In this document: piece by piece, positions 27,278-60,972 of the stretch
Position numbering within the stretch: the first letter of the stretch is position 1
Layout of the letters: each line of letters opens with the position of its first letter
Assembly: GCA_000092065.1 (NCBI GenBank)
Contig: CP000584.1
Reading direction: 5' to 3' (one strand)
Length of the DNA: 64,000 bases
Origin: Ostreococcus lucimarinus
Lineage: Eukaryota
The notes under the pieces: model-generated
What the model saw: only the letters and a program-made list of their open reading frames with translations
The model's database searches: none
What the model was told of the DNA's origin: nothing
Made by a program: the position numbers and the translations under genes

Positions 27278-28237
27278 ATGGCCATGCTCGCCACGTCCCG
27301 CGCGTACGCTCTCGCGCACGCTCGCCCTCGCCTCGCCTCGCCGTACCGTCATCGCGCGTCGTCGTCGCACCGCGCGGTCGCGGTCGAATCGACGTCGACG
27401 ACGGCGAGCGATCTCGGCGCGCTCGGTGACGGACGATTCTCCAAGCTCCTCGGCGCGCTGGACGTCGCGGAATTGACGTCCGTGATCGCAGGAAGCGACG
27501 AAGCGCTGACGGTGTTCGCGCCGACGGACGAGGCGTTCGAGCGGTGCGCGCGGGACAGGGCGCTGGCGTTCGAGGAACTCGCCGAACGCGAAAACTTGGA
27601 CGAGATATTGAAGTATCACGTCGTGAGCGGCGCGGTGAAGTCGAGCGATTTGAAGAGTGGACAAGTGAAGACGCTGAATGGACGCTCTGTGAAGGTTGAC
27701 GTCGCTGGGGGTGAGGTGAAGGTCGACGGCGTCAAGGTGACGGAGGCGGATAAGGCGGCGTTCGGGGGCAACGTCGTCGTGCACGTCGTGGACGAGGTTG
27801 TTTTTCCGGCGTTTTCGATCAACGCCAAAGTGCAAACGCCGCAAGAAATTCTTGCGTTCGAGGGATGGGCGCCGGAGGTGATTAACGGACGCGTCGCCAT
27901 GCTTGGGTTCGTGCTGGCGCTGACGGGCGAAATCGCCACGGGGGAGTCGTTCACGACGCAGGCGGCGAACAACTTTGGCGAGCTCACGCGCACGATGTTC
28001 GTGTGGAGCTTGGCGTCTCTTTTCCCGGCGTTCAGTTCGAACGAGGGGTACGAGGCGAACCCGTTCAAGATGGCTGACAGTAAGGAATGGGAATTTGTTT
28101 TCCGCGGTTGCCCGCCGTGGCTCGCGGTGAAGGATGTCTTTTCGCCCGAGGTTGAACAGCTGAACGGCCGCGCCGCCATGATTGGCTGCGCTTCGATGAT
28201 CGTTCTTGAAACGCTCCTGGGACACGCGCTCTTCTAG
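27278..28237 (+). CDS. plastid-targeted FAS1 (fasciclin) domain fused to a two-helix LHC/ELIP-like chlorophyll-binding module
   Basis: It has an S/R/A-rich N-terminal presequence. A FAS1 domain follows (LTVFAPTDEAFER...ILKYHVVSG...NGRSVKVD...NVVVHVVDEVVFP). Then come two CAB-type helices carrying the Chl-ligand motif E-x-x-NGR-x-AM: WAPEVINGRVAMLGFVLALTGE and SPEVEQLNGRAAMIGCASMIVLE. ATG is at 27278 and stop TAG at 28235-37. Confidence 0.7.
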   Translation: MAMLATSRAYALAHARPRLASPYRHRASSSHRAVAVESTSTTASDLGALGDGRFSKLLGALDVAELTSVIAGSDEALTVFAPTDEAFERCARDRALAFEELAERENLDEILKYHVVSGAVKSSDLKSGQVKTLNGRSVKVDVAGGEVKVDGVKVTEADKAAFGGNVVVHVVDEVVFPAFSINAKVQTPQEILAFEGWAPEVINGRVAMLGFVLALTGEIATGESFTTQAANNFGELTRTMFVWSLASLFPAFSSNEGYEANPFKMADSKEWEFVFRGCPPWLAVKDVFSPEVEQLNGRAAMIGCASMIVLETLLGHALF

Positions 28238-31300: not shown

Positions 31301-32789
31301 CTTCCCTTTGAGCTTCTTTCTGCATTTTAGCTGCTTGCTTCGCCGCTTCCTTCTCTGCTTTGGCAGCCTCCCGCAAAGAGTCGCGATGCTGCTTCATCAT
31401 GTCCGCGAGCGTTCTTTTCGCGTCCAAACGCTCCTCTCTTTGCTTCGCACGCGTCGCAGCGCTGTCAACGCGCGATATGAGACGCTCAATCAGCTTGCTA
31501 ATGGACTTCTCGACCCTGCTCTGTGCCGACTTTTCGGTCTTTTCCTTCTTCGTCATCTCGCGAATCTTGGCGAGAATTTCCTTGGAATCGCAGAGACGCG
31601 ATTTGGAGCGGCGAACTCGTTCTTCAAACCACCCCTCACGCTCTTCGACAAATTGGTACTTGGCAGCCGCGTCAGATCCTGGCAAACTTTCGATTGCACG
31701 AACGACGCGAACATCATCAAACGAAAAGTGGTCGTGGATCCCAATGGAAACCATGGGGCCGATGGTTTCGCACATCTCAAGCCAAGCACCGAGCGGAGAA
31801 GCCGAGCACACACTCACAGTAGAACCGTCTTTTTCCGTCGACACGACGAATTCAGGCGCATTATCGGAAGCTTTCGTGACTTCACTCGTAAACGTCACGC
31901 CAGAGTCGTTCTTCCAAATCGTCTTGTAACCAAGTGGCCAAATGTGCACGTCATCGTGAAACTCATCGTTATCGCCAAGAACTTGGCCGAAACTCTCCAC
32001 AACCAAATTTTCTCCTAAATCCATCGGCACCGTCGGTTGCTCGGCTTCTCGAGCCTTCTTCACCGCCTCCTCGCGAGACAGCGGCTTGAAGTGTTCGGGT
32101 TTCTTCGCCGCGGCGGACGATTTGAGAATTTTTTGCGGCGCGAGCCCGAGCGCGCGCACCACCTCCAATCTCGATCGATACCTCTCCTTATCGGGCGACC
32201 AGTACAGCGCATCGTACGTTCCCGCGCTCGCGCCTTGTGTCCGCATCGTCGCCGTGCACGTCCAATCATCCGAAAGCTGTCCTCCGCACTTGGCCACGTA
32301 CTCTCGCAACGCCTCCAGCAACGCCGGCGTCGGATCATCCGCGCTCCGATCCGCCCGAATCGCCCCTCCTGTCGTCACCTTCACCCGTTTCGCCGCCTGT
32401 TCATCCCCACCGCTCGCCTCCGCGTTCGCCCCAACCACTTTCCCATCGACGATTTTCGCCCCGGCGCCGACGCTCGCGCTTCGTCCTCGCGTCGACGCGT
32501 GAAAGTCATCGTCATCGTCCTCCTCCTCGTCTTCGTCCTCCTCGTCGATCGAGCTCGCGTCGTAATCCGCATCCTCATCATCCTCGACCCCGTCGTCGCT
32601 CGGTCTCACCGCGCGTCCGTTCGTCGTCGTCGCGTCTCTCGTCGTCTCGGTCTCGACAGGTGTCTTTTGATCATCATCGCCCGTTCGCGTCGCCGCCGTC
32701 GCGTTTTCCCTCGTCTCTTCGCCCTCGCGCGCGTCTTCCCGCGACGCGATCGTCCTTTTGTGCATCTTGAACACTCCCGCGGCGTCCAT
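28365..32789 (-). CDS. BAZ/MBD9-like chromatin protein with MBD, DDT-like, two PHD and WSD/WHIM motifs
   Basis: An MBD core (DWTCTATMRTQGASAGTYDALYWSPDKERYRSRLEVVRALG) resembles the MeCP2 MBD. PHD fingers are CSVCGLDVMAGTVLLCDSCDGEYHAKCLDPPLLAEPEGEWFCPTC and another Cys/His cluster upstream. A K/E-rich coiled region and a C-terminal WSD-like WRNLAGSAQTLSALAAAIIVFQRAIESDWLQPGW are present. The first ATG is at 32787-89 (MDAAGVF...); the ORF-track extension to 33050 is TTG-initiated. Stop is TGA at 28365-67. Confidence 0.7.
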   Translation of the reverse strand: MDAAGVFKMHKRTIASREDAREGEETRENATAATRTGDDDQKTPVETETTRDATTTNGRAVRPSDDGVEDDEDADYDASSIDEEDEDEEEDDDDDFHASTRGRSASVGAGAKIVDGKVVGANAEASGGDEQAAKRVKVTTGGAIRADRSADDPTPALLEALREYVAKCGGQLSDDWTCTATMRTQGASAGTYDALYWSPDKERYRSRLEVVRALGLAPQKILKSSAAAKKPEHFKPLSREEAVKKAREAEQPTVPMDLGENLVVESFGQVLGDNDEFHDDVHIWPLGYKTIWKNDSGVTFTSEVTKASDNAPEFVVSTEKDGSTVSVCSASPLGAWLEMCETIGPMVSIGIHDHFSFDDVRVVRAIESLPGSDAAAKYQFVEEREGWFEERVRRSKSRLCDSKEILAKIREMTKKEKTEKSAQSRVEKSISKLIERLISRVDSAATRAKQREERLDAKRTLADMMKQHRDSLREAAKAEKEAAKQAAKMQKEAQREAEKVVREAAKAKAAIEREAQKEINKAKRAKEAEEKKKRDAERAKMMNELENKQKEWLVGMSERESDSADTTYSPPVMSPNLKIEPDFKEKSELGDIMEIWMFLDRFKRELFGSAADVKSPPTVQALARVLSNPKESEEFMASLHLALIAPCVADAAASVDKSSASALQLLPDAHSHISDTKGVWQELVRRFLYAASVIHDMPAYEPYLKDAPPILPEAADVFTRYMCSGDAGIDPLSYAEGAVWHGHAVEKYSARVSPALCALSDAEALAAAEIEMYALGSGVSDDSSSRVVESRRQKAKSAVAEAKSSQHIHAVRCALRNMACQHSMSQVCLRGDGAAVKGQHPRGLDIRLLDARLGAGVYAAAAHSTSNADEMDELIKADVLEAATNMASLTNGNGAKAKKELIAAVEGALKQTKAGSDELPKTPWDEGCSVCGLDVMAGTVLLCDSCDGEYHAKCLDPPLLAEPEGEWFCPTCVREKENNDAPNVSCCKSFEGTTLHKASTGEMIIARDAMMEKVDNAAEDAVYTGGCRGAFARRLRSLARDIDAVGFDGLSPQARVTLLRTLMTVALDSVALRTSIDNGVNLANETKKDIRQHIKAWSEYRLDREDGKGEARDAEEAKAAEEAKAAEEAKAKDETQPMDVDEAQASPAEEVKPEEKKEKKAKAPQQTKQQKVPTEEELAQARVRWQSKWHEVEVPQLQTAPRREPLGSDRHRQKYWALGNWGEVIVQAAKDNEHHDVEPEYGIMTLSETKVLIDNINPKGRKEGDLWRSLQRRYGADQAALKDVDALPSRPDDGEWATSGVSDDVEGISRVRSAFLTLESEIPDVAFNSVLGSETRRAMWRNLAGSAQTLSALAAAIIVFQRAIESDWLQPGWLPWSWMAPLLRCSHRSNEKSDARCLRLHLIALRRAFKWNKATRASDRLVNAAPDLELPRSSRARKATIVESDSDDEYESIFSDSDEVMPSKTTAENRRFRL

Positions 32790-33020
32790 GGCGACCCGGG
32801 GCGCGCGCCGGCGCGTCGTCAAGTCCGGCTGGTTTGAAATGCGAACCTCGAGCGGGGCGCGTGTCGACGGAATTCGCGCGCGCGCGGCGACACACTGGCG
32901 CGCGCGCGCCCGATCGGCGCGGTCTCGCGAGACGACGAGGCGAGGAAACGGAACGACCGCGCGCGCGCGCGAAGCGGAGGGGCGAACGCGCGCGCATCGG
33001 CGCGCGAACGGGCGATTTCG

Positions 33021-36000
33021 ATGAGCGAAAAGATGAAATCGGCGTTTCAAGCGGCCAAGTCAAAGGTTTCGAGCGCGGTCGAGACGACCAAGGCGCGGTC
33101 GAAGGCGCGACAGACGTCCGCGGGGGGGAGCATGGATGTCGATGCGTCGTTAAGGGGGGTCGGGGACGACGGAGACGCGCGCGAGGCGCTGCGCGAGGCG
33201 AGGGAACACGCGAATTCGTTGGAGCGAGCGCAGGCGGCGCTGAACGGGGAGATGCGGCGGATGGCGAATGAATACGAAAGGGTGCGCGGTGAGCTCGATG
33301 CGGTGAGCCGGGAGAAAGAAGAGGTTCGACAACGAGCGTCGGCGGCGTGGACGGAGATGACGGCGGAGATCGAGGCGTTGAAGGCGGAGCTCGAGCGGGC
33401 TCGAGGCGGGAAAGCGGAGGGCGACGCGGGAGAAGACGCCATAGATGAACTCAAGCAAAAGGCGCACTTGGAGGCGCGAGCGATTAAAAAGGTTCTTATT
33501 GAAGACAGGGAAAAGTTTGCCGCGACGGAGGCTGAGTTGAGGGGGAGAATTAAAGAATTAGAGGACGCGCTCGCGAATGTCGAGGAAGGCGCCAAGTACA
33601 CAAGCGAGGCGAACGCGGAGCTATCGTCCAACGTGCAGACGTTGGAGTCGCAAGTTTCTTCGCTTCGGATAGAAGTGAACGAGAAAAACGCCACGGTAGA
33701 GCGTTTGGAGCGAGCGAGCGCGGCGCCGTCTGAAGAAGTTGCGGCGGCACGTGCGGAGACTCGACAGACGCAAGCCCAAGCCGAAAGACTCGAGTCTTTG
33801 CTCGAGGTCACGAAGTCGGAACTCGAAAAGACGACGTCTTCGCTCGAACAAGAAGAAGCGAACGGCGCTAAAACACGCGAAGCCGTGGTGTCGCTAGAGT
33901 CTCAGTTAGCGGCGGTAACAGCAGAGCTGCAAGCAAGTACAGACGCTCAAGCGTCCACAAGCTCTGCAACAGACGAACTCAAGGCAGAATTAGCCGCCGC
34001 ACGAGTCGAGTACGGCCAAGTACGGTCCGAGCTCGAGGCGAAATCGAAGGCGCTGGAGCAGGCGCAGGCTTCAAGCGTGGCGACAAGTGAGCTCGAGGCG
34101 GAGCTGGCTTCCACGCGCTCTGAGCTCGAGGCGAAATCGAAGGCGCTGGAGCAGGCGCAGGCTTCAAGCGTGGCGACAAGTGAGCTCGAGGCGGAGCTGG
34201 CTTCCACGCACTCTGAGCTCGAGGCGAAATCGAAGGCGCTGGAGCAGGCGCAGGCTTCAAGCGTGGCGACAAGTGAGCTCGAGGCGGAGCTGGCTTCCAC
34301 GCGCTCTGAGCTCGAGGCGAAATCGAAGGCGCTGGAGCAGGCGCAGGCTTCAAGCGTGGCGACAAGTGAGCTCGAGGCGGAGCTGGCTTCCACGCGCTCT
34401 GAGCTCGAGGCGAAATCGAAGGCGCTGGAGCAGGCGCAAGCTTCAAGCGTGGCGACAAGTGAGCTCGAGGCGGAGCTGGCTTCCACGCGCTCTGAGCTCG
34501 AGGCGAAATCGAAGGCGCTGGAGCAGGCGCAGGCTTCAAGCGTGGCGACAAGTGAGCTCGAGGTGGAGCTGGCTTCCACGCACTCTGAGCTCGAGGCGAA
34601 ATCGAAGGCGCTGGAGCAGGCGCAGGCTTCAAGCGTGGCGACAAGTGAGCTCGAGGCGGAGCTGGCTTCCACGCGCTCTGAACTCGAGGCGAAATCGAAG
34701 GCGCTGGAGCAGGCGCAGGCTTCAAGCGTGGCGACAAGTGAGCTCGAGGCGGAGCTGGCTTCCACGCGCTCTGAGCTCGAGGCGAAATCGAAGGCGCTGG
34801 AGCAGGCGCAGGCTTCAAGCGTGGCGACAAGTGAGCTCGAGGCGGAGCTGGCTTCCACGCACTCTGAGCTCGAGGCGAAATCGAAGGCGCTGGAGCAGGC
34901 GCAGGCTTCAAGCGTGGCGACAAGTGAGCTCGAGGCGGAGCTGGCTTCCACGCACTCTGAGCTCGAGGCGAAATCGAAGGCGCTGGAGCAGGCGCAGGCT
35001 TCAAGCGTGGCGACAAGTGAGCTCGAGGCGGAGCTGGCTTCCACGCGCTCTGAGCTCGAGGCGAAATCGAAGGCGCTGGAGCAGGCGCAGGCTTCAAGCG
35101 TGGCGACAAGCGAGCTCGAGGCGGAGCTGGCTTCCACGCACTCTGAGCTCGAGGCGAAATCGAAGGCGCTGGAGCAGGCGCAGGCTTCAAGCGTGGCGAC
35201 AAGCGAGCTCGAGGCGGAGCTGGCTTCCACGCGCTCTGAGCTCGAGGCGAAATCGAAGGCGCTGGAGCAGGCGCAGGCTTCAAGCGTGGCGACAAGCGAG
35301 CTCGAGGCGGAGCTGGCTTCCACGCGCTCTGAGCTCGAGGCGAAATCGAAGGCGCTGGAGCAGGCGCAGGCTTCAAGCGTGGCGACAAGTGAGCTCGAGG
35401 CGGAGCTGGCTTCCACGCGCTCTGAGCTCGAGGCGAAATCGAAGGCGCTGGAGCAGGCGCAGGCTTCAAGCGTGGCGACAAGCGAGCTCGAGGCGGAGCT
35501 GGCTTCCACGCGCTCTGAGCTCGAGGCGAAATCGAAGGCGCTGGAGCAGGCGCAGGCTTTGTCAAGTGAGACGCAGCAACGGTTGGAAACCGCTCGCAAC
35601 ACATCGCAGTCGGAAGTATCCGTGCTGAAGCAAGAGCTTGTAGAAAAGAATCATGCTCTTGCGGAAGCGCAAGCGTCGAGTGTGAACGTGGAAGAAATTC
35701 AAGCCACGACTCAGTTGTTGGAATCTCAGCTTGTTGCAGTGAAAGCAGAGCTTGAAGCAAAGAGCGCAGAGCTCGACGCACAGAAGGAGGCACTCATGCG
35801 CGCCGAAGCGACGAAGAGTTCAAGCGCAGAAGAAGTCGAAACAATGAAAACGACGTTAATGTCTCAACTTGCGATGGTGCAAGACGAACTCGCGTCAAAG
35901 ACCGAGGCGCTCAAGAAGGCAGAGTCTGCGTCGAACGCTGCAGCACAAGAAAAAGCAGCCGCGAAGGAATTGTTCGATTCACAATTGAGCTCTGCGCGAG

Positions 36001-37058
36001 CGGAAATTGAATCAAAGACGAGTGAGGCACAAAGTGCATCGGACGCAAGGGACGCCCTGCAGTCCAAGGTGAGCGCCCTTCAAGGCGAGCTTCAGGCGAA
36101 ACATGAAGCGCTCGAGCTTGCGCAAGCCTCAACGGGATCAGCGACGGACGAACTCCAATCGAGCCTCGATGCGGCTCGTCAACGAGCCCTTGGTTTTGAA
36201 ACCGATCTCGAAGCGCTTCGTGCAGAGCTCGCGGCTCTTCGTGCAGAGCTCGCGGATAAAACGCAAGCGCTCACCGCGTTTGAGCAGAATGCCTCCGCCG
36301 CGAGGACGGAGCTACAAGAGAAACTCGAGAAGAGTCTTGAGCACGCTCGAGCAGAGAATCAACAAGTAACGGAAAAACACGAGGAAGTGCAGGCGACGTT
36401 ATTGACGGATGTGGAATCGCTCAAGGCGAATCTAGAGTCGGCAGAGACTCGTAATGCCGTCATGGAAGAGGAGCTTCGCTTGACAAACGAAGCGCTGAAT
36501 CGTTCATCCGTCGAAGCCTCGGGCATTGAAAGTGTTCGCACACAGCTCGCTGAGGTCAGCGAGCGTTTCAAAGAGTCCGAAATGGAAAGATCCACTCTCG
36601 AGCAAAGTCTGCGCGTCGCGAACGAGCGCCTGACCTCGTTGGAAGAACGACTCAAAGTTGCTGAGGAGAACGATGCCTCCGCCGCCGAGGCGCTCCGTGA
36701 AGCCAATGAACAAGCCGCGAAGGCGAAGGATAACGTCGCGTCCATCGCCTCCGTGAGCGCCACCCAATTCGCTCAAGAGCGTCAAATGATGAAAAATGCC
36801 CTGAGCGAGCTCCAAACCGAGCGTGACATCCTCGTCAAGATGCTCAAAACTTTTCACGCGCACGGCGTCGTGCACTCGACGAGCGAGACAGCGTCTCATC
36901 GCGACGCCAGCGAGAGCGTCTTCGGGGACGGCCCTTCGGAGTTCGCCCGGCGTTTCACCGATTCCGCGTCATTAGCTGGCGTGTTCACCCCGAGAAAACG
37001 CGCCCCGTACGTTGACCTCGACCGGCAGTCCCCCAACTCACCGCGCTCGCCCAACTGA
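33021..37058 (+). CDS. large coiled-coil protein (1345 aa) with 16.5 tandem 31-aa repeats SELEAKSKALEQAQASSVATSELEAELASTR/H
   Basis: A real ATG at 33021 is divergent from the BAZ-like gene, 231 bp away. It is a continuous A/E/L/K/Q-rich heptad protein with N- and C-terminal unique coiled-coil regions flanking the repeat block. Stop is TGA at 37056-58. No motor or globular domain was recognised. Confidence 0.75.
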   Translation: MSEKMKSAFQAAKSKVSSAVETTKARSKARQTSAGGSMDVDASLRGVGDDGDAREALREAREHANSLERAQAALNGEMRRMANEYERVRGELDAVSREKEEVRQRASAAWTEMTAEIEALKAELERARGGKAEGDAGEDAIDELKQKAHLEARAIKKVLIEDREKFAATEAELRGRIKELEDALANVEEGAKYTSEANAELSSNVQTLESQVSSLRIEVNEKNATVERLERASAAPSEEVAAARAETRQTQAQAERLESLLEVTKSELEKTTSSLEQEEANGAKTREAVVSLESQLAAVTAELQASTDAQASTSSATDELKAELAAARVEYGQVRSELEAKSKALEQAQASSVATSELEAELASTRSELEAKSKALEQAQASSVATSELEAELASTHSELEAKSKALEQAQASSVATSELEAELASTRSELEAKSKALEQAQASSVATSELEAELASTRSELEAKSKALEQAQASSVATSELEAELASTRSELEAKSKALEQAQASSVATSELEVELASTHSELEAKSKALEQAQASSVATSELEAELASTRSELEAKSKALEQAQASSVATSELEAELASTRSELEAKSKALEQAQASSVATSELEAELASTHSELEAKSKALEQAQASSVATSELEAELASTHSELEAKSKALEQAQASSVATSELEAELASTRSELEAKSKALEQAQASSVATSELEAELASTHSELEAKSKALEQAQASSVATSELEAELASTRSELEAKSKALEQAQASSVATSELEAELASTRSELEAKSKALEQAQASSVATSELEAELASTRSELEAKSKALEQAQASSVATSELEAELASTRSELEAKSKALEQAQALSSETQQRLETARNTSQSEVSVLKQELVEKNHALAEAQASSVNVEEIQATTQLLESQLVAVKAELEAKSAELDAQKEALMRAEATKSSSAEEVETMKTTLMSQLAMVQDELASKTEALKKAESASNAAAQEKAAAKELFDSQLSSARAEIESKTSEAQSASDARDALQSKVSALQGELQAKHEALELAQASTGSATDELQSSLDAARQRALGFETDLEALRAELAALRAELADKTQALTAFEQNASAARTELQEKLEKSLEHARAENQQVTEKHEEVQATLLTDVESLKANLESAETRNAVMEEELRLTNEALNRSSVEASGIESVRTQLAEVSERFKESEMERSTLEQSLRVANERLTSLEERLKVAEENDASAAEALREANEQAAKAKDNVASIASVSATQFAQERQMMKNALSELQTERDILVKMLKTFHAHGVVHSTSETASHRDASESVFGDGPSEFARRFTDSASLAGVFTPRKRAPYVDLDRQSPNSPRSPN
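34026..35562 (+). repeat. 93-bp tandem repeat, ~16.5 near-identical copies, in frame inside the coiled-coil CDS
   Basis: The unit is tc(t/c)gagctcgaggcgaaatcgaaggcgctggagcaggcgcaggcttcaagcgtggcgacaag(t/c)gagctcgagg(c/t)ggagctggcttccacgc(g/a)c. Copies differ only at ~4 positions: cgc/cac giving R/H, gcg/gtg giving E/V, agt/agc and gag/gaa synonymous. The period is 93 = 31 codons. Confidence 0.92.
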
Positions 37059-37121
37059 AATAAATAGCTCACGTTGCAACCATCGTATCTATGCCTCACC
37101 GCCGCCTCACACAGATGCACG

Positions 37122-38555
37122 ATGTCGCTCGACCGCGTGGACGCCGATGATGACCCATCATCGTCCACCGATGACGACGGTTTCCCTCCCGGCGTGTCCC
37201 TGGGCACGACGCACGGTGGCGTCCGAGTGTTGCAAATCGATGACCATCCAGAAGACAAACCAAAGTGCGCGAAAAAGCTTCAACATCCCGCGAGTGGAAG
37301 CGAAATCACGCTCATCGGAAGCGCGCACGTCTCAGAGGCGTCCGCACGCGAGGTATCGCGCGCGATTCTAGAGGGTAAACCAGATTTGGTGGTCATCGAA
37401 CTCGACGGGGACAGATTGAAGAGTTTGTTGCGGAGCGCGAGCGAAGACCGACCCGCGATGCACGCGGCGAGGCGAGTGGCGAGCGTGCGTGAGGCGTTCA
37501 ACACGCTGGTGAATGGACAATTGGCGATCGTGGCGGGGAGTTTGGGGTACTCGACGATCGGGGCGGTGTTGGACACGCGGCCCGGGGCAGAGTTCATAGC
37601 TGCGGTGGAAGCGGCGCGGGACGTCGGCGCGACTGTGGTTCTTGGAGATAGGAATCAGCGAGCAACGGTGGGGAGGTTGATGGCGCGTGTGCGACGTGGA
37701 TCAACGCTGTTCGATGAGCTGGCCAAAACTGGAGAGTTTTTGGGGGGGGAGACGGATTTGGCGCGCGCCGACGCGGCGACGAAGCGAAGCGGCGTGCAAA
37801 AGGCAAAGCATATATTGGAGAAGGCTGGATGTGAACATAGCGAGGCGGTCATTAAATCCGCGCTAGAAATTTTAGACAGCGGCATGAGAGGCATACCGGT
37901 ACGCGTGGATGATTTGATGCGCGTGCGAAAGTGTGCTCGTAGGGTTGTCGAGTACGTGCGAGTTGAGTCGTTCAATGGCAACCCGACGTTCAGTCCCGGA
38001 TTATCAAAGGTCGATAGCGCCAAAAAGATGAGCATCATGGATTGGGCGACGGCTGAAACGGTTATTCGAGAGCGTGATTTGATCTTGGCGACGGCACTAC
38101 AACGGGACCCCACGGCATCGAGTGTCGTCGGCGTTGTGGGAGCCGGTCACATCGCGGGCATCCAGCAACTCTGGGACGAAGTTGAAAGCTCGGAATCGCG
38201 CGCAAAGTTCAACGAATATCTGAACGAATGGCCGACAGACGCAAAACCAGTCGACTATACTAACAGAATTTTGTCCGGCGTGTTCGGTGCTGCCGCGTTC
38301 ACTACGATACTCCGTCGGGGATCTGCCGGGGCGGTGAAATTCGCCGGCGCGTTGGTTGGATCGATGTTGACGCTCGGCGCCGTCGGGACGTATATGGGTG
38401 CTTCTGGATTAGTCGCGCTTGGCCGTGTCGCCGTCGCGATAGAAGATGCATCAATTCGCGCGGCTGAGCTTGGAAATCGCGAAGACTCGGCTCGGGCGAA
38501 GGGAGCATTTTCAAACATGATTGTTCGAGACGCGGCTGTGCCATATAAGGAATAA
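37122..38555 (+). CDS. TraB-family (pheromone-shutdown-like) domain protein
   Basis: Family motifs are ITLIGSAHVSEASAREVSRAILEGKPDLVVIELD...R and VVGVVGAGHIAGIQQLW, with a GVFGAAAFTT... hydrophobic C-terminus. The first in-frame ATG is at 37122. Stop is TAA at 38553-55, only 32 bp from the convergent downstream gene's stop. Confidence 0.7.
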   Translation: MSLDRVDADDDPSSSTDDDGFPPGVSLGTTHGGVRVLQIDDHPEDKPKCAKKLQHPASGSEITLIGSAHVSEASAREVSRAILEGKPDLVVIELDGDRLKSLLRSASEDRPAMHAARRVASVREAFNTLVNGQLAIVAGSLGYSTIGAVLDTRPGAEFIAAVEAARDVGATVVLGDRNQRATVGRLMARVRRGSTLFDELAKTGEFLGGETDLARADAATKRSGVQKAKHILEKAGCEHSEAVIKSALEILDSGMRGIPVRVDDLMRVRKCARRVVEYVRVESFNGNPTFSPGLSKVDSAKKMSIMDWATAETVIRERDLILATALQRDPTASSVVGVVGAGHIAGIQQLWDEVESSESRAKFNEYLNEWPTDAKPVDYTNRILSGVFGAAAFTTILRRGSAGAVKFAGALVGSMLTLGAVGTYMGASGLVALGRVAVAIEDASIRAAELGNREDSARAKGAFSNMIVRDAAVPYKE

Positions 38556-59875: not shown

Positions 59876-60369
59876 CGCGCGCGCGTGTGCCGTCGCGGCG
59901 GTTCGCGGCGGTCGCGTTCGATCGGCATCCGCGTCGTCGTCGTCGTCGGACGCGGGAAAAAATAGGAGGCCCGTCAGTGGAGATGAACATCAAACGGTCT
60001 ACGCGACTGCGTGCGCAGAAAATCGATCCGGCGCGCGCGGGCGCGGTGGCGTCGGTGTCGTTACGGGCTTCGCCCGGGCGGGCTGGGCAGAGAAAGTCAA
60101 CAACGGCGACGGCGTCGGCGCGAGGCGCGCCCGTAATCGCGTCGAAGATCGAGAAACGAAATCGTCGACGACGAAATTTCTCGTCTCGTCATCAAGGATA
60201 AATGCACTCGTCGTCTGCAGGACGCCGACTACGTTTTTTTTTCCGCGGCGACCTCAACCGGCGTTTCGTGGCTGTCGTTTTCTCGCGTCGTCTCGACGCC
60301 TCGGACGCGCGTGACGTCACTTTACGACGCCGACGCGACGACGCACCGACGACGACGACAACGAAAACG

Positions 60370-60972
60370 ATGACGATGACGACGAAAACGATCACCGGGG
60401 CGCTCGTGTGCGCGCTGGCGCTCTCGGCGATGGTGCCAACCTGTTTTGCTAAAGACGTGACGTGGGACGCGATGGCGGACGCCGCCGCGGCGCCGGCGCC
60501 GGCGCCGGCCGACGACGCCGCGGCCCCGGCCCCGGCGCCGACGATGGACGGCGAGCGCACCGTCGTTGACGTCGCGATCGAAGATCCGAGATTCGCGACG
60601 CTCGTCACCGCGGTGGTGGCGGTGCCCGAAGTTCTGGATACGCTCGAGACGCCGGGGCCTTGGACCGTCTTCGCGCCGAGCAACGAGGCCATCGCGACGT
60701 TTTTGGCCGAAAACGGATTGACCGCCGAACAACTCTTGGCTTCGCCTGGTTTGGGTGATGTGTTGAAGAAGCACGTCGTCGCGAGCAAACTTCTCGCCGC
60801 GGACGCGGTGAACGCCGTGAGCGCTGGACCGATTACGCTGACGACGTTGAACGGCGACGTCGACGCGCGCATGGTCGACGGAACGCTGTACGTCGGTGGC
60901 GCGGCCGTCGTCCAGGTGGACATCATGGCGGACAACGGCGTCGTACACGTGATCGATCGCGTGATTCAATGA
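60370..60972 (+). CDS. secreted FAS1 (fasciclin) domain protein
   Basis: It has a signal peptide MTMTTKTITGALVCALALSAMVPTCFA. The FAS1 domain (FATLVTAVVAVPEVLDTLETPGPWTVFAPSNEAIATFL...LKKHVVASKLLAADAV...NGVVHVIDRVIQ) carries conserved H1/H2 boxes. ATG is at 60370 (an upstream in-frame ATG at 60202 would add an R-rich leader), and stop is TGA at 60970-72. Confidence 0.7.
   Translation: MTMTTKTITGALVCALALSAMVPTCFAKDVTWDAMADAAAAPAPAPADDAAAPAPAPTMDGERTVVDVAIEDPRFATLVTAVVAVPEVLDTLETPGPWTVFAPSNEAIATFLAENGLTAEQLLASPGLGDVLKKHVVASKLLAADAVNAVSAGPITLTTLNGDVDARMVDGTLYVGGAAVVQVDIMADNGVVHVIDRVIQ

What the first reader, a model, noticed from the sequence alone, without database searches (positions are those of the whole stretch)
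34026..35562. Near-perfect 93-bp x 16.5 in-frame tandem array inside a 1345-aa coiled-coil gene
Sixteen and a half 31-codon units are almost identical at the nucleotide level. They differ at ~4 sites, including an R/H polymorphism at the unit end. At that identity the block must be evolving by unequal crossing-over or gene conversion, and copy number is probably polymorphic between strains. The encoded unit (SELEAKSKALEQAQASSVATSELEAELASTR) is a heptad-compatible block inside a longer unique coiled coil, so copy number would set rod length. Such arrays collapse in short-read assemblies, so the true copy number may differ. Antisense and alternative-frame ORFs across it (33947-35602, 33979-35793, 34087-35628) are repeat artefacts.
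Basis: seen in the sequence. Interest (0 to 1): 0.6.

Follow-up and report, generated by a model that had tools for sequence, protein, structure and literature searches.

The report
Coding tandem repeat in Ostreococcus rod protein
A real, nearly perfect 93-base repeat (16.5 copies) sits in frame inside a conserved but uncharacterised all-helical rod protein of the tiny marine alga Ostreococcus lucimarinus; it is a good example of a known kind of fast-evolving coding repeat, not a new mechanism.

Summary
There are 93 bp x 16.46 copies at 34029-35559, 98% identical, with no indels. The array is in frame in a single-exon 1345-aa ORF (33021-37058, +). The window is Ostreococcus lucimarinus CCE9901 nuclear DNA.

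The gene is real. It has syntenic orthologues, conserved N- and C-termini, and dN/dS of about 0.24 against a sister lineage that is 94% identical. That sister lineage carries the same array in the same phase. All its units share five fixed differences from the window's units, which is textbook concerted evolution.

Short-read metagenome assemblies of the same genotype show 1.5-6.5 units, an N gap or a contig break. So 16.5 copies cannot be verified or refuted here.

The protein family appears restricted to Ostreococcus-like picoalgae, and no curated domain fits it. In every lineage the central rod carries its own recently duplicated unit (117, 156 or 210 bp). One 117-bp copy-number difference occurs between alleles that are 99% identical.

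"Heptad-compatible" is inexact. 31 = 4x7+3, so the register slips every unit, although AlphaFold2 predicts a continuous helix. The flagellar or scale role is unlikely. This is a new member of a known kind, of modest interest.

The parts
33021..37058 (+). Single-exon gene for a 1345-aa acidic (net charge -102), all-helical rod protein. It is an orphan family found only in Ostreococcus-like picoalgae.
   Evidence: ORF and translation. Syntenic orthologues lie between a PHD/WSD gene and a TraB-like gene. dN/dS is 0.24 on both unique flanks against sister lineage L012. No curated family passes its cut-off.
33021..34028 (+). Unique N-terminal part (aa 1-336). It holds the conserved block ALREAREHANSLERAQAALNGEMRRMA (33186-33266) and heptad-periodic helix. 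Its last ~31 aa are an old, diverged copy of the unit (AQASTSSATDELKAELAAAR).
   Evidence: Alignments A1 and A3. Hydrophobic periodicity peaks at 3.52. The diverged copy was seen in the translation.
34029..35559 (+). 93-bp x 16.46 in-frame tandem array. It encodes (S)ELEAKSKALEQAQASSVATSELEAELAST[R/H], covers 512 aa, and carries net charge -3 per unit.
   Evidence: AlphaFold2 models aa 290-460 as one continuous helix with pLDDT 95.
35560..36596 (+). Post-array unique rod. It is made of older, degenerate iterations of the same EL..K..AL..A[EQ].S motif (at aa 872, 956 and 1023) and is heptad-periodic.
   Evidence: Motif scan, periodicity, alignment.
36597..37055 (+). Conserved C-terminal module. 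It has a near-invariant helix AKAKDNVASIAS.SATQFAQERQMMKNAL.ELQTERDILVKMLKTFH.H...HST (36717-36884). This is followed by a predicted disordered tail with an invariant VFTP motif (TPRK, 36987-36998, a CDK-type S/T-P-x-K/R consensus in most orthologues) and SP-rich end (37029-37055).
   Evidence: Alignment A2 with 73% mean column identity. A profile search of 1.84 billion representatives finds only this family. AlphaFold2 on the orthologue gives a helix to residue 544 and then low confidence. Reading the motif as a CDK site is inference.
33947..35793 (-). Two antisense shadow ORFs (33947-35602 and 33979-35793). They are artefacts of a stop-free repeat unit.
   Evidence: Two antisense frames of the unit contain no stop codon, and both ORFs end 43-234 nt outside the array.
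34087..35628 (+). A +1-frame shadow ORF (513 aa, Arg/Ser-rich). It is an artefact of the repeat.
   Evidence: The +1 frame of the unit has no stop. The ORF begins inside the array and ends 69 nt after it.
32766..33020 (.). 255-bp divergent intergenic region shared with the upstream PHD/WSD/FYR/MBD chromatin-protein gene on the minus strand, whose start codon is at 32765.
   Evidence: Gene calls on the 99.85%-identical scaffold L004, mapped onto the window. Pfam hits of the neighbour.

Best explanation
The feature is a genuine coding minisatellite. One 31-codon iteration of an old, degenerate helical motif (EL..K..AL..AQ.SS...) has been amplified head-to-tail to about 16.5 copies. This happened inside the central rod of an Ostreococcus-restricted protein that is acidic and almost entirely alpha-helical.

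Shown:
- The array is in frame and free of indels.
- The gene is under purifying selection and is syntenic across lineages.
- The array is shared in the same phase with a sister lineage 94% identical, yet it is homogenised separately in each. It therefore turns over by unequal exchange, replication slippage or gene conversion faster than point mutations accumulate.
- The same central region has been re-duplicated independently in every other lineage of the family. At least one copy-number difference separates 99%-identical alleles.

Inferred:
- The conserved N- and C-terminal modules are the working ends. The C-terminal module ends in a disordered tail with a CDK-type TP-x-K/R site.
- The central rod is a tolerant spacer. 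Each unit adds about 4.6 nm of helix, so the array adds about 76 nm, and copy number sets the length of the molecule.
- Because 31 = 4x7+3, the array is not a regular heptad coiled coil. If it pairs at all, it must accommodate one register slip per unit.
For: Array anatomy.

Organism: window ORF 27278-28237 is exactly XP_001417214.1 of O. lucimarinus CCE9901.

Real gene:
- Orthologues are 34-59% identical overall, with 73% mean column identity in the C-terminal module.
- Synteny is conserved.
- Against L012, dS is 0.13-0.15 and dN is 0.031-0.036.

Concerted evolution:
- L012 and L013 carry the same 93-bp unit, starting and ending at the same phase.
- Five substitutions (positions 42, 50, 60, 73, 93) are present in every one of their units and differ from the window's consensus unit; four are absent from every window unit, and the position-60 C occurs in 4 of the 16.
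- That is 5.4% between lineages against 1.3% within the array, and it equals the divergence of the flanks.

Array turnover: contigs L005 and L006 have flanks 99.9% identical to the window. They contain a unit with A3 and A89 together, a combination absent from the window's array.

Family-wide hot spot:
- 117-bp unit: x1/x2/x3 in proteins of 599/638/677 aa.
- 117-bp unit in the P0001 lineage: x1/x2 in 880/919 aa.
- 210-bp duplication: 660/730 aa.
- 156-bp unit: x1.2/2.2/3.2.
- L049 and L022 are 99.0-99.2% identical and differ by exactly one 117-bp unit.
- Large contigs of 53-97 kb end inside these units.

Helical rod:
- AlphaFold2 gives a continuous helix, and the orthologue is all-alpha.
- The unique rods have 3.52-residue periodicity.
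Against: - The copy number of this array is not independently verified. Every other assembly of this genotype is short-read and shows 1.5-6.5 units, a gap or a break.
- No expression data could be examined.
- The array has no 3.5-residue hydrophobic peak. Its strongest harmonics are 31/7 and 31/9, so 'coiled coil' is unproven for the repeat itself.
- The AlphaFold2 result is a single-sequence monomer model. Only one of five models had high confidence (95 against 73-80).
- Function is inferred from architecture alone. No homologue has a known role.
- The copy-number series in other lineages comes from short-read assemblies and could be partly collapse.
Confidence: 0.75

Rival explanations
1. 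The array is real, but the number 16.5 is an assembly product. The true CCE9901 copy number differs, being either collapsed or over-expanded in the reference.
For: A 1.5-kb block of units 98-100% identical is longer than a Sanger read. Independent short-read assemblies of the same genotype give 1.5, 2.5, 3.5, 3.5, 5.5 and 6.5 units or an N gap. This shows how unstable assembly of the block is.
Against: - The window array carries an ordered, non-periodic pattern of 5 variant sites, including clustered C60 units 11-13 and 15. That pattern gives anchor points for assembly.
- The first and last units agree with the metagenome contigs.
- From my own knowledge, unverified here, the reference was clone-based and finished, so insert sizes would have constrained the length.
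Confidence: 0.25
2. The expansion is neutral slippage 'junk' that a helical spacer tolerates. Copy number has no functional meaning and simply drifts.
For: - Unit length and position differ between lineages (31, 39, 52 and 70 aa).
- 1-, 2- and 3-copy alleles coexist.
- Orthologues range from 599 to 1345 aa while the termini stay conserved. This suggests weak constraint on rod length.
Against: - All arrays stay in frame and free of indels.
- Every lineage keeps a repeat-prone central rod.
- Between-lineage unit divergence shows the same synonymous/non-synonymous mix as the constrained flanks (3 synonymous and 2 non-synonymous per unit). The unit sequence is therefore not free to decay. None of this proves selection on length.
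Confidence: 0.4
3. The rod folds back as an antiparallel hairpin, like SMC or Rad50, bringing the conserved N- and C-terminal modules together. The array would sit at or near the apex and pair with itself.
For: - Both ends are conserved while the middle is variable.
- Automated annotations of fragments read 'chromosome segregation ATPase'.
- The weak NCBIfam hits are to SMC and Rad50 arms.
Against: - Those hits are far below the curated cut-offs (82 bits against 300; 44 against 729) and cover only coiled-coil arms.
- No ATPase head, hinge or zinc hook is detected.
- AlphaFold2 shows no fold-back (pTM 0.24).
- The array is not central in the window protein (aa 336-847 of 1345).
Confidence: 0.08
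4. The ORF is not a functional gene. It would be a decaying pseudogene or a chance open frame in GC-rich DNA held open by the repeat.
For: - The exact protein is not in the 15-billion-sequence collection, and no NCBI- or UniRef-sourced relative was returned.
- GC-rich DNA here produces many shadow ORFs.
Against: - dN/dS is 0.24 over 2.5 kb of unique sequence.
- The ATG-proximal N-terminus and the C-terminal module are conserved in all lineages.
- Synteny is conserved.
- The searches also missed identical JGI contig genes, so absence from the hit lists is weak evidence.
Confidence: 0.02

Closest known systems
Coding minisatellites under concerted evolution in structural or surface proteins (for example yeast FLO/ALS adhesins, streptococcal M and M-like coiled-coil proteins, trypanosomatid repeat-containing cytoskeletal proteins). 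This comparison is from my own knowledge.
   Same: Long units whose length is a multiple of three. Near-identity at the nucleotide level within an array. Homogenisation within a lineage and divergence between lineages. Copy-number changes that alter protein length without breaking the frame.
   Different: The protein has no signal peptide, wall anchor or adhesin domain, and it appears intracellular. The repeat sits in an orphan family confined to one picoalgal genus. Copy-number variation of this array itself has not been measured.
Long coiled-coil tether or spacer proteins with conserved ends (golgins, EEA1, centrosomal and nuclear-envelope rod proteins). This comparison is from my own knowledge.
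   Same: The protein is almost entirely alpha-helical. It has heptad-periodic unique rods, short conserved terminal modules and a disordered phospho-site-rich tail. Rod length is variable between species.
   Different: No GRIP, GRAB, FYVE, transmembrane or other defining end domain was found. The amplified block breaks the heptad register once per 31 residues. The 'early endosome antigen 1' labels on fragments are automated annotations.
SMC/Rad50 family ('chromosome segregation ATPase', as JGI auto-annotation names fragments of this protein)
   Same: Long helical arms, which is the only reason for the weak profile hits.
   Different: There is no ATPase head, hinge or hook. All scores are far below the curated cut-offs.
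PARCELs (palindromic amphipathic repeat coding elements) reported in O. lucimarinus and other microbes (PMC2996958)
   Same: Intragenic tandem repeats that occur in Ostreococcus genomes.
   Different: PARCEL units are about 25 residues with W/F...NQ motifs, and their DNA is palindromic. The listed O. lucimarinus examples are other genes. The unit here is an E/A/S/L helix with no such motif.

Membership tests
Coding minisatellite under concerted evolution | Head-to-tail units, unit length a multiple of 3, in frame with the host ORF, no frame-breaking indels | tested here: met
   93 bp x 16.46 copies with 0% indels, lying inside ORF 33021-37058.
Coding minisatellite under concerted evolution | Units more alike within a lineage than between lineages, with lineage-specific substitutions present in all units | tested here: met
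   L012 and L013 have 5 substitutions present in all their units. Divergence is 5.4% between lineages and 1.3% within the array. The array phase is the same in both.
Coding minisatellite under concerted evolution | Copy number differs between individuals or strains | tested here: inconclusive
   For this array, assemblies give 1.5-6.5 units, a gap or a break, and collapse cannot be excluded. For the analogous 117-bp array of another lineage, alleles 99% identical differ by exactly one unit.
Canonical heptad coiled coil | 3.5-residue periodicity of core hydrophobic residues maintained along the segment | tested here: not met
   The unique N and C rods peak at 3.52. The array peaks at 4.43 and 3.44 (31/7 and 31/9), and the best register shifts by 3 at each unit. 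The test is therefore met for the flanks and not met for the repeat.
Canonical heptad coiled coil | Continuous alpha-helix | tested here: met
   AlphaFold2 models aa 290-460 as a helix from residue 3 to 170 of the fragment, with pLDDT 95 in the best of five models. This is a prediction only.
Canonical heptad coiled coil | Parallel or antiparallel oligomer with knobs-into-holes packing | not testable with these tools
   Only monomer predictions were possible.
SMC / Rad50 | N- and C-terminal ATPase head halves, plus a hinge or zinc hook | tested here: not met
   Pfam finds no SMC_N, hinge or AAA head. NCBIfam SMC and Rad50 scores are 16-44 bits against cut-offs of 567-1000, and they cover arm regions only.
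Golgin / EEA1-type tethers | Defining terminal domain (GRIP, GRAB, FYVE, C2H2 or a transmembrane anchor) | tested here: not met
   No such Pfam hit appears even at E<=1 on the terminal segments. Golgin_A5 scores 17 bits against a cut-off of 31.7 in one orthologue.
Intermediate filament / lamin-like | IF rod domain (Pfam Filament) with conserved rod-end motifs | tested here: not met
   PF00038 scores 12.9 bits against a cut-off of 40. A CDK-type TP-x-K/R site near the C-terminus is present but is not diagnostic.
PARCEL repeats | Units of about 25 residues with W/F..NQ motifs, encoded by palindromic DNA | tested here: not met
   The unit peptide has no W, F or N. The paper's O. lucimarinus examples are different loci.
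Single alpha-helix (SAH/ER-K) domain | Balanced, dense E and K/R giving i to i+4 salt bridges and no hydrophobic seam | tested here: not met
   The unit has 6 E against 2 K plus 1 R/H, for net charge -3 per unit and -54 for the array. It also has 5 Leu/Val per unit.

The most novel reading that the evidence does not exclude
The protein could be an Ostreococcus-specific, cell-cycle-regulated molecular spacer. Its length would be an evolvable trait. Each clade keeps a recombination-prone helical module in the rod and re-amplifies it independently, and CCE9901 carries an extreme allele with about 76 nm of extra rod in a cell about 1 um across. Copy number would then tune a physical distance in the smallest free-living eukaryote, for example between an organelle or envelope and a partner bound by the conserved ends. 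Array turnover would give populations standing variation in that distance.
Probability: 0.15. Interest if true: 0.55.

Novelty: new member of a known kind. Interest (0 to 1): 0.33.

Why it matters
It gives a clean, well-bounded case of concerted evolution of a coding minisatellite in one of the most compact eukaryotic genomes.

It also marks a previously uncharacterised protein family, restricted to one genus. The central rod of this family is a recurrent hot spot for in-frame duplication and a systematic breakpoint in metagenome assemblies.

Practically, it warns that short-read Ostreococcus assemblies and MAGs will truncate, split or shorten this gene. It also offers a candidate strain-typing marker. 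It does not reveal a new mechanism.

Tried and rejected
- tRNA and Rfam scans of the window found nothing.
- The bacterial promoter/terminator scan is irrelevant for a eukaryote and stayed at chance level.
- Pfam, NCBIfam and PDB sequence searches, with the protein, its termini and a family profile, gave only sub-threshold generic coiled-coil hits. The single Pfam pass (TBCA_PH, with 0 individually significant stretches) is repeat and composition bias.
- The PARCEL hypothesis, raised by a literature hit, was rejected after reading the paper.
- A link to prasinoviruses was tested by scanning viral contigs for the unit. There were no matches.
- I could not settle whether the reference annotation has a model for this gene. 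The exact 1345-aa sequence is absent from the collection, and no NCBI-sourced relative was returned. Those word-indexed searches also missed identical JGI contig genes, so I draw no conclusion.
- I tried to confirm the sequencing method in Palenik et al. 2007, but the paper is not held.
- I looked for long-read or chromosome-scale independent assemblies through neighbouring genes. Only short-read Logan contigs that break at the array were found.
- Literature searches for this gene or repeat found nothing specific.
Full report
**1. Observation**

Tandem Repeats Finder reports one array at 34029-35559. It has period 93, 16.5 copies, 98% matches, no indels and score 2978. It is the only substantial tandem repeat in the 64-kb window. 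A 41-nt segment of the unit occurs 17 times with up to 3 mismatches, against 0 expected, and all matches lie in the array.

Printing the units in register shows five variable positions:
- G/A at position 3, synonymous, unit 7
- G/A at position 39, synonymous, unit 4
- T/C at position 60, synonymous, units 11, 12, 13 and 15
- C/T at position 71, Ala->Val, unit 5
- G/A at position 89, Arg->His, units 1, 5, 8, 9 and 11

There are seven distinct unit sequences among the 16 full units. The mean pairwise difference is 1.23 nt, or 1.3%. The array is in frame in ORF 33021-37058 (+), which starts with ATG and encodes 1345 aa.

**2. Where the window comes from**

The neighbouring ORFs carry eukaryotic chromatin and membrane domains: PHD/WSD/FYRN/FYRC/MBD, SNF2, XK-related and RRM. 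Window ORF 27278-28237 is exactly XP_001417214.1 (ABO95507.1) of Ostreococcus lucimarinus CCE9901, on a record of 930,724 bp. The window is therefore nuclear DNA of that picoalga. From my own knowledge, this reference was Sanger-sequenced and finished. I could not confirm that here.

**3. It is a real gene**

Orthologues were found in metagenome assemblies. They share the N-terminus (M..K.K.A..AK.K...AV) and a conserved N-terminal block. They also share a very conserved C-terminal module, with 73% mean column identity over about 140 residues and a long invariant stretch, SATQFAQERQMMKNAL.ELQ.ERDILVKMLKTF.

They lie in the same gene order: the PHD/WSD gene divergent upstream and the TraB-like gene downstream.

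Against a sister lineage that is 94-95% identical at the nucleotide level (L012), the two unique flanks give dS of 0.149 and 0.131 and dN of 0.036 and 0.031. That is dN/dS of about 0.24. The pseudogene and chance-ORF readings are therefore rejected.

The unit has no stop codon in four of its six frames, and those ORFs end 43-234 nt beyond the array.

**4. How the array evolves**

L012 and L013 carry the same 93-bp unit at the same place. It starts after the same flank and ends with the same 0.46 partial unit. All of their units share five substitutions relative to the window consensus, at positions 42, 50 (Val->Ala), 60, 73 (Glu->Gln) and 93.

The consensus units therefore differ by 5.4%. That is the same as the flanks, with the same mix of synonymous and non-synonymous changes. 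Units within one array differ by only 1.3%. The shared phase argues that the first duplication predates the split. The fixed differences argue for continuing homogenisation by unequal exchange, slippage or conversion.

Contigs whose flanks are 99.9% identical to the window (L005, L006) contain a unit with A3 and A89 together. That combination does not exist in the window's array. This suggests the internal arrangement already differs between very close genotypes, although an assembly chimera cannot be fully excluded.

**5. Copy number**

No independent assembly resolves the array.
- Scaffold L004 (99.85% identical) enters the array for 1.6 units, has 100 N, and resumes in the last partial unit.
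- JGI contigs L005-L008, L011 and L015 bridge it with 5.5, 6.5, 3.5, 3.5, 1.5 and 2.5 units.
- Logan contigs of two sequencing runs stop at its left and right edges.

This is what collapse of a near-perfect repeat in short-read assembly looks like. It neither confirms nor refutes 16.5 copies, and it cannot separate collapse from true polymorphism.

**6. A family-wide pattern**

The central rod in all orthologues is built from degenerate iterations of a motif, EL..K..AL..A[EQ].S. Each lineage has recently duplicated a different iteration:
- a 39-aa (117-bp) unit in 1, 2 or 3 copies (proteins of 599, 638 and 677 aa; 674 aa in a 91%-identical sub-lineage)
- another 39-aa unit in 1 or 2 copies (880 and 919 aa)
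- a 70-aa duplication (660 and 730 aa)
- a 52-aa (156-bp) unit in 1.2, 2.2 or 3.2 copies

L049 and L022 are 99.0-99.2% identical in their flanks and differ by exactly one 117-bp unit. One against two copies of a 117-bp unit is within the resolving power of k=141 assemblies, so this is probably real. Large contigs of 53-97 kb terminate inside these units.

The multiple alignment places the window's array as an insertion upstream of the segments duplicated in other lineages. The expansions are therefore independent events in one repeat-prone region.

**7. What the protein is**

No Pfam, NCBIfam or PDB sequence match passes a curated threshold. The exception is TBCA_PH, which has no individually significant stretch and reflects repeat bias. 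The JGI labels on fragments ('chromosome segregation ATPase', 'early endosome antigen 1', 'DUF3084') are generic coiled-coil artefacts.

A profile of the C-terminal module, searched against 1.84 billion representative proteins, finds only 7 clusters. Six are this family. The seventh matches only a short helical stretch. All related contigs have 54-60% GC. That range is unlike Bathycoccus or Micromonas, by my own knowledge of their GC content. The family therefore looks restricted to Ostreococcus-like algae.

AlphaFold2 models window aa 290-460, which spans the flank plus four units, as one uninterrupted helix. The best model has pLDDT 95 and the others 73-80. The 599-aa orthologue is modelled as five long helices plus a disordered C-terminal tail.

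Hydrophobic periodicity is 3.52 in both unique rods. In the array the power sits at 31/7 and 31/9, and the best heptad register moves by 3 at every unit. This is as expected, because 31 = 4x7+3.

The unit is acidic, at -3 net charge, and the array carries -54. It is therefore not an E/K single-alpha-helix domain.

The invariant VFTP (TP-x-K/R in most orthologues) and the SP-rich end look like proline-directed kinase sites. This is inference only.

**8. Mechanism proposed**

The conserved ends are the functional modules. The rod is a spacer that tolerates, and repeatedly acquires, in-frame duplications. Each 31-residue unit would add about 4.6 nm of helix and the array about 76 nm (arithmetic, assuming 0.1485 nm per residue).

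Whether length is selected or drifts is open.

**9. Comparison and novelty**

The behaviour matches that of well-known coding minisatellites in structural and surface proteins. The architecture resembles long tether or spacer proteins. Membership of SMC/Rad50, golgin/EEA1, intermediate-filament, PARCEL and SAH classes was tested and not met.

This is a new member of a known kind of feature, in an uncharacterised family restricted to one genus. Interest is modest. The useful findings are the concerted-evolution evidence, the recurrent hot spot across lineages, and the warning about assembly and annotation.

Noticed in passing
window 36987-37055 (aa 1323-1345); alignment A2: The C-terminal tail has an invariant VFTP motif; the TP-x-K/R form (CDK-type consensus, also NLS-like RKR) is present in most orthologues. 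It is followed by SP-rich motifs (SPNSPRSPN). This hints at proline-directed phosphorylation or nuclear targeting of the protein.
   Followed up: partly
L021, L025-L030, L039 (5' ends); L002/L003 start at window 35783: Large metagenome contigs of 53-97 kb from other Ostreococcus-like lineages terminate inside their own lineage-specific repeat units of this gene. This locus is therefore a systematic assembly breakpoint. Two contigs of the window genotype instead start at a small 21-bp x1.9 repeat (35745-35784), 220 bp after the array.
   Followed up: partly
L005 7115-7207 and L006 7115-7207: Environmental contigs with flanks 99.9% identical to the window have a unit carrying both the A3 and A89 variants. 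No unit of the window's array has that combination. This is either array rearrangement between close genotypes or an assembly chimera.
   Followed up: no
window 37059-37121 and 32766-33020: Gene spacing is very tight. Only 63 bp separate the stop codon of the rod-protein gene from the ATG of the TraB/PrgY/GumN-like gene (37122-38555). A 255-bp divergent region is shared with the PHD/WSD/FYR/MBD chromatin-protein gene.
   Followed up: partly
(protein collection): The exact 1345-aa protein is not in the 15-billion-sequence collection. No NCBI- or UniRef-sourced relative of it was returned, although neighbouring O. lucimarinus proteins are present with XP_ accessions. The reference annotation may lack or mis-model this gene, but the searches were not exhaustive enough to say.
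   Followed up: partly
window 60474-60540: A 33-bp x2 GC-rich (Ala/Pro-coding) tandem repeat lies inside the FAS1-domain protein gene (ORF 60202-60972). It is the only other tandem repeat scoring above 100 in the window.
   Followed up: no
window 34029-35559: Each unit contains the 12-mer GAGCTCGAGGCG twice, at positions 1 and 61. It encodes ELEA and includes SacI and XhoI sites. Even so, no out-of-register units of 60 or 33 bp are seen. GC3 of the array (0.78) is higher than that of the unique parts of the gene (0.65-0.67).
   Followed up: no
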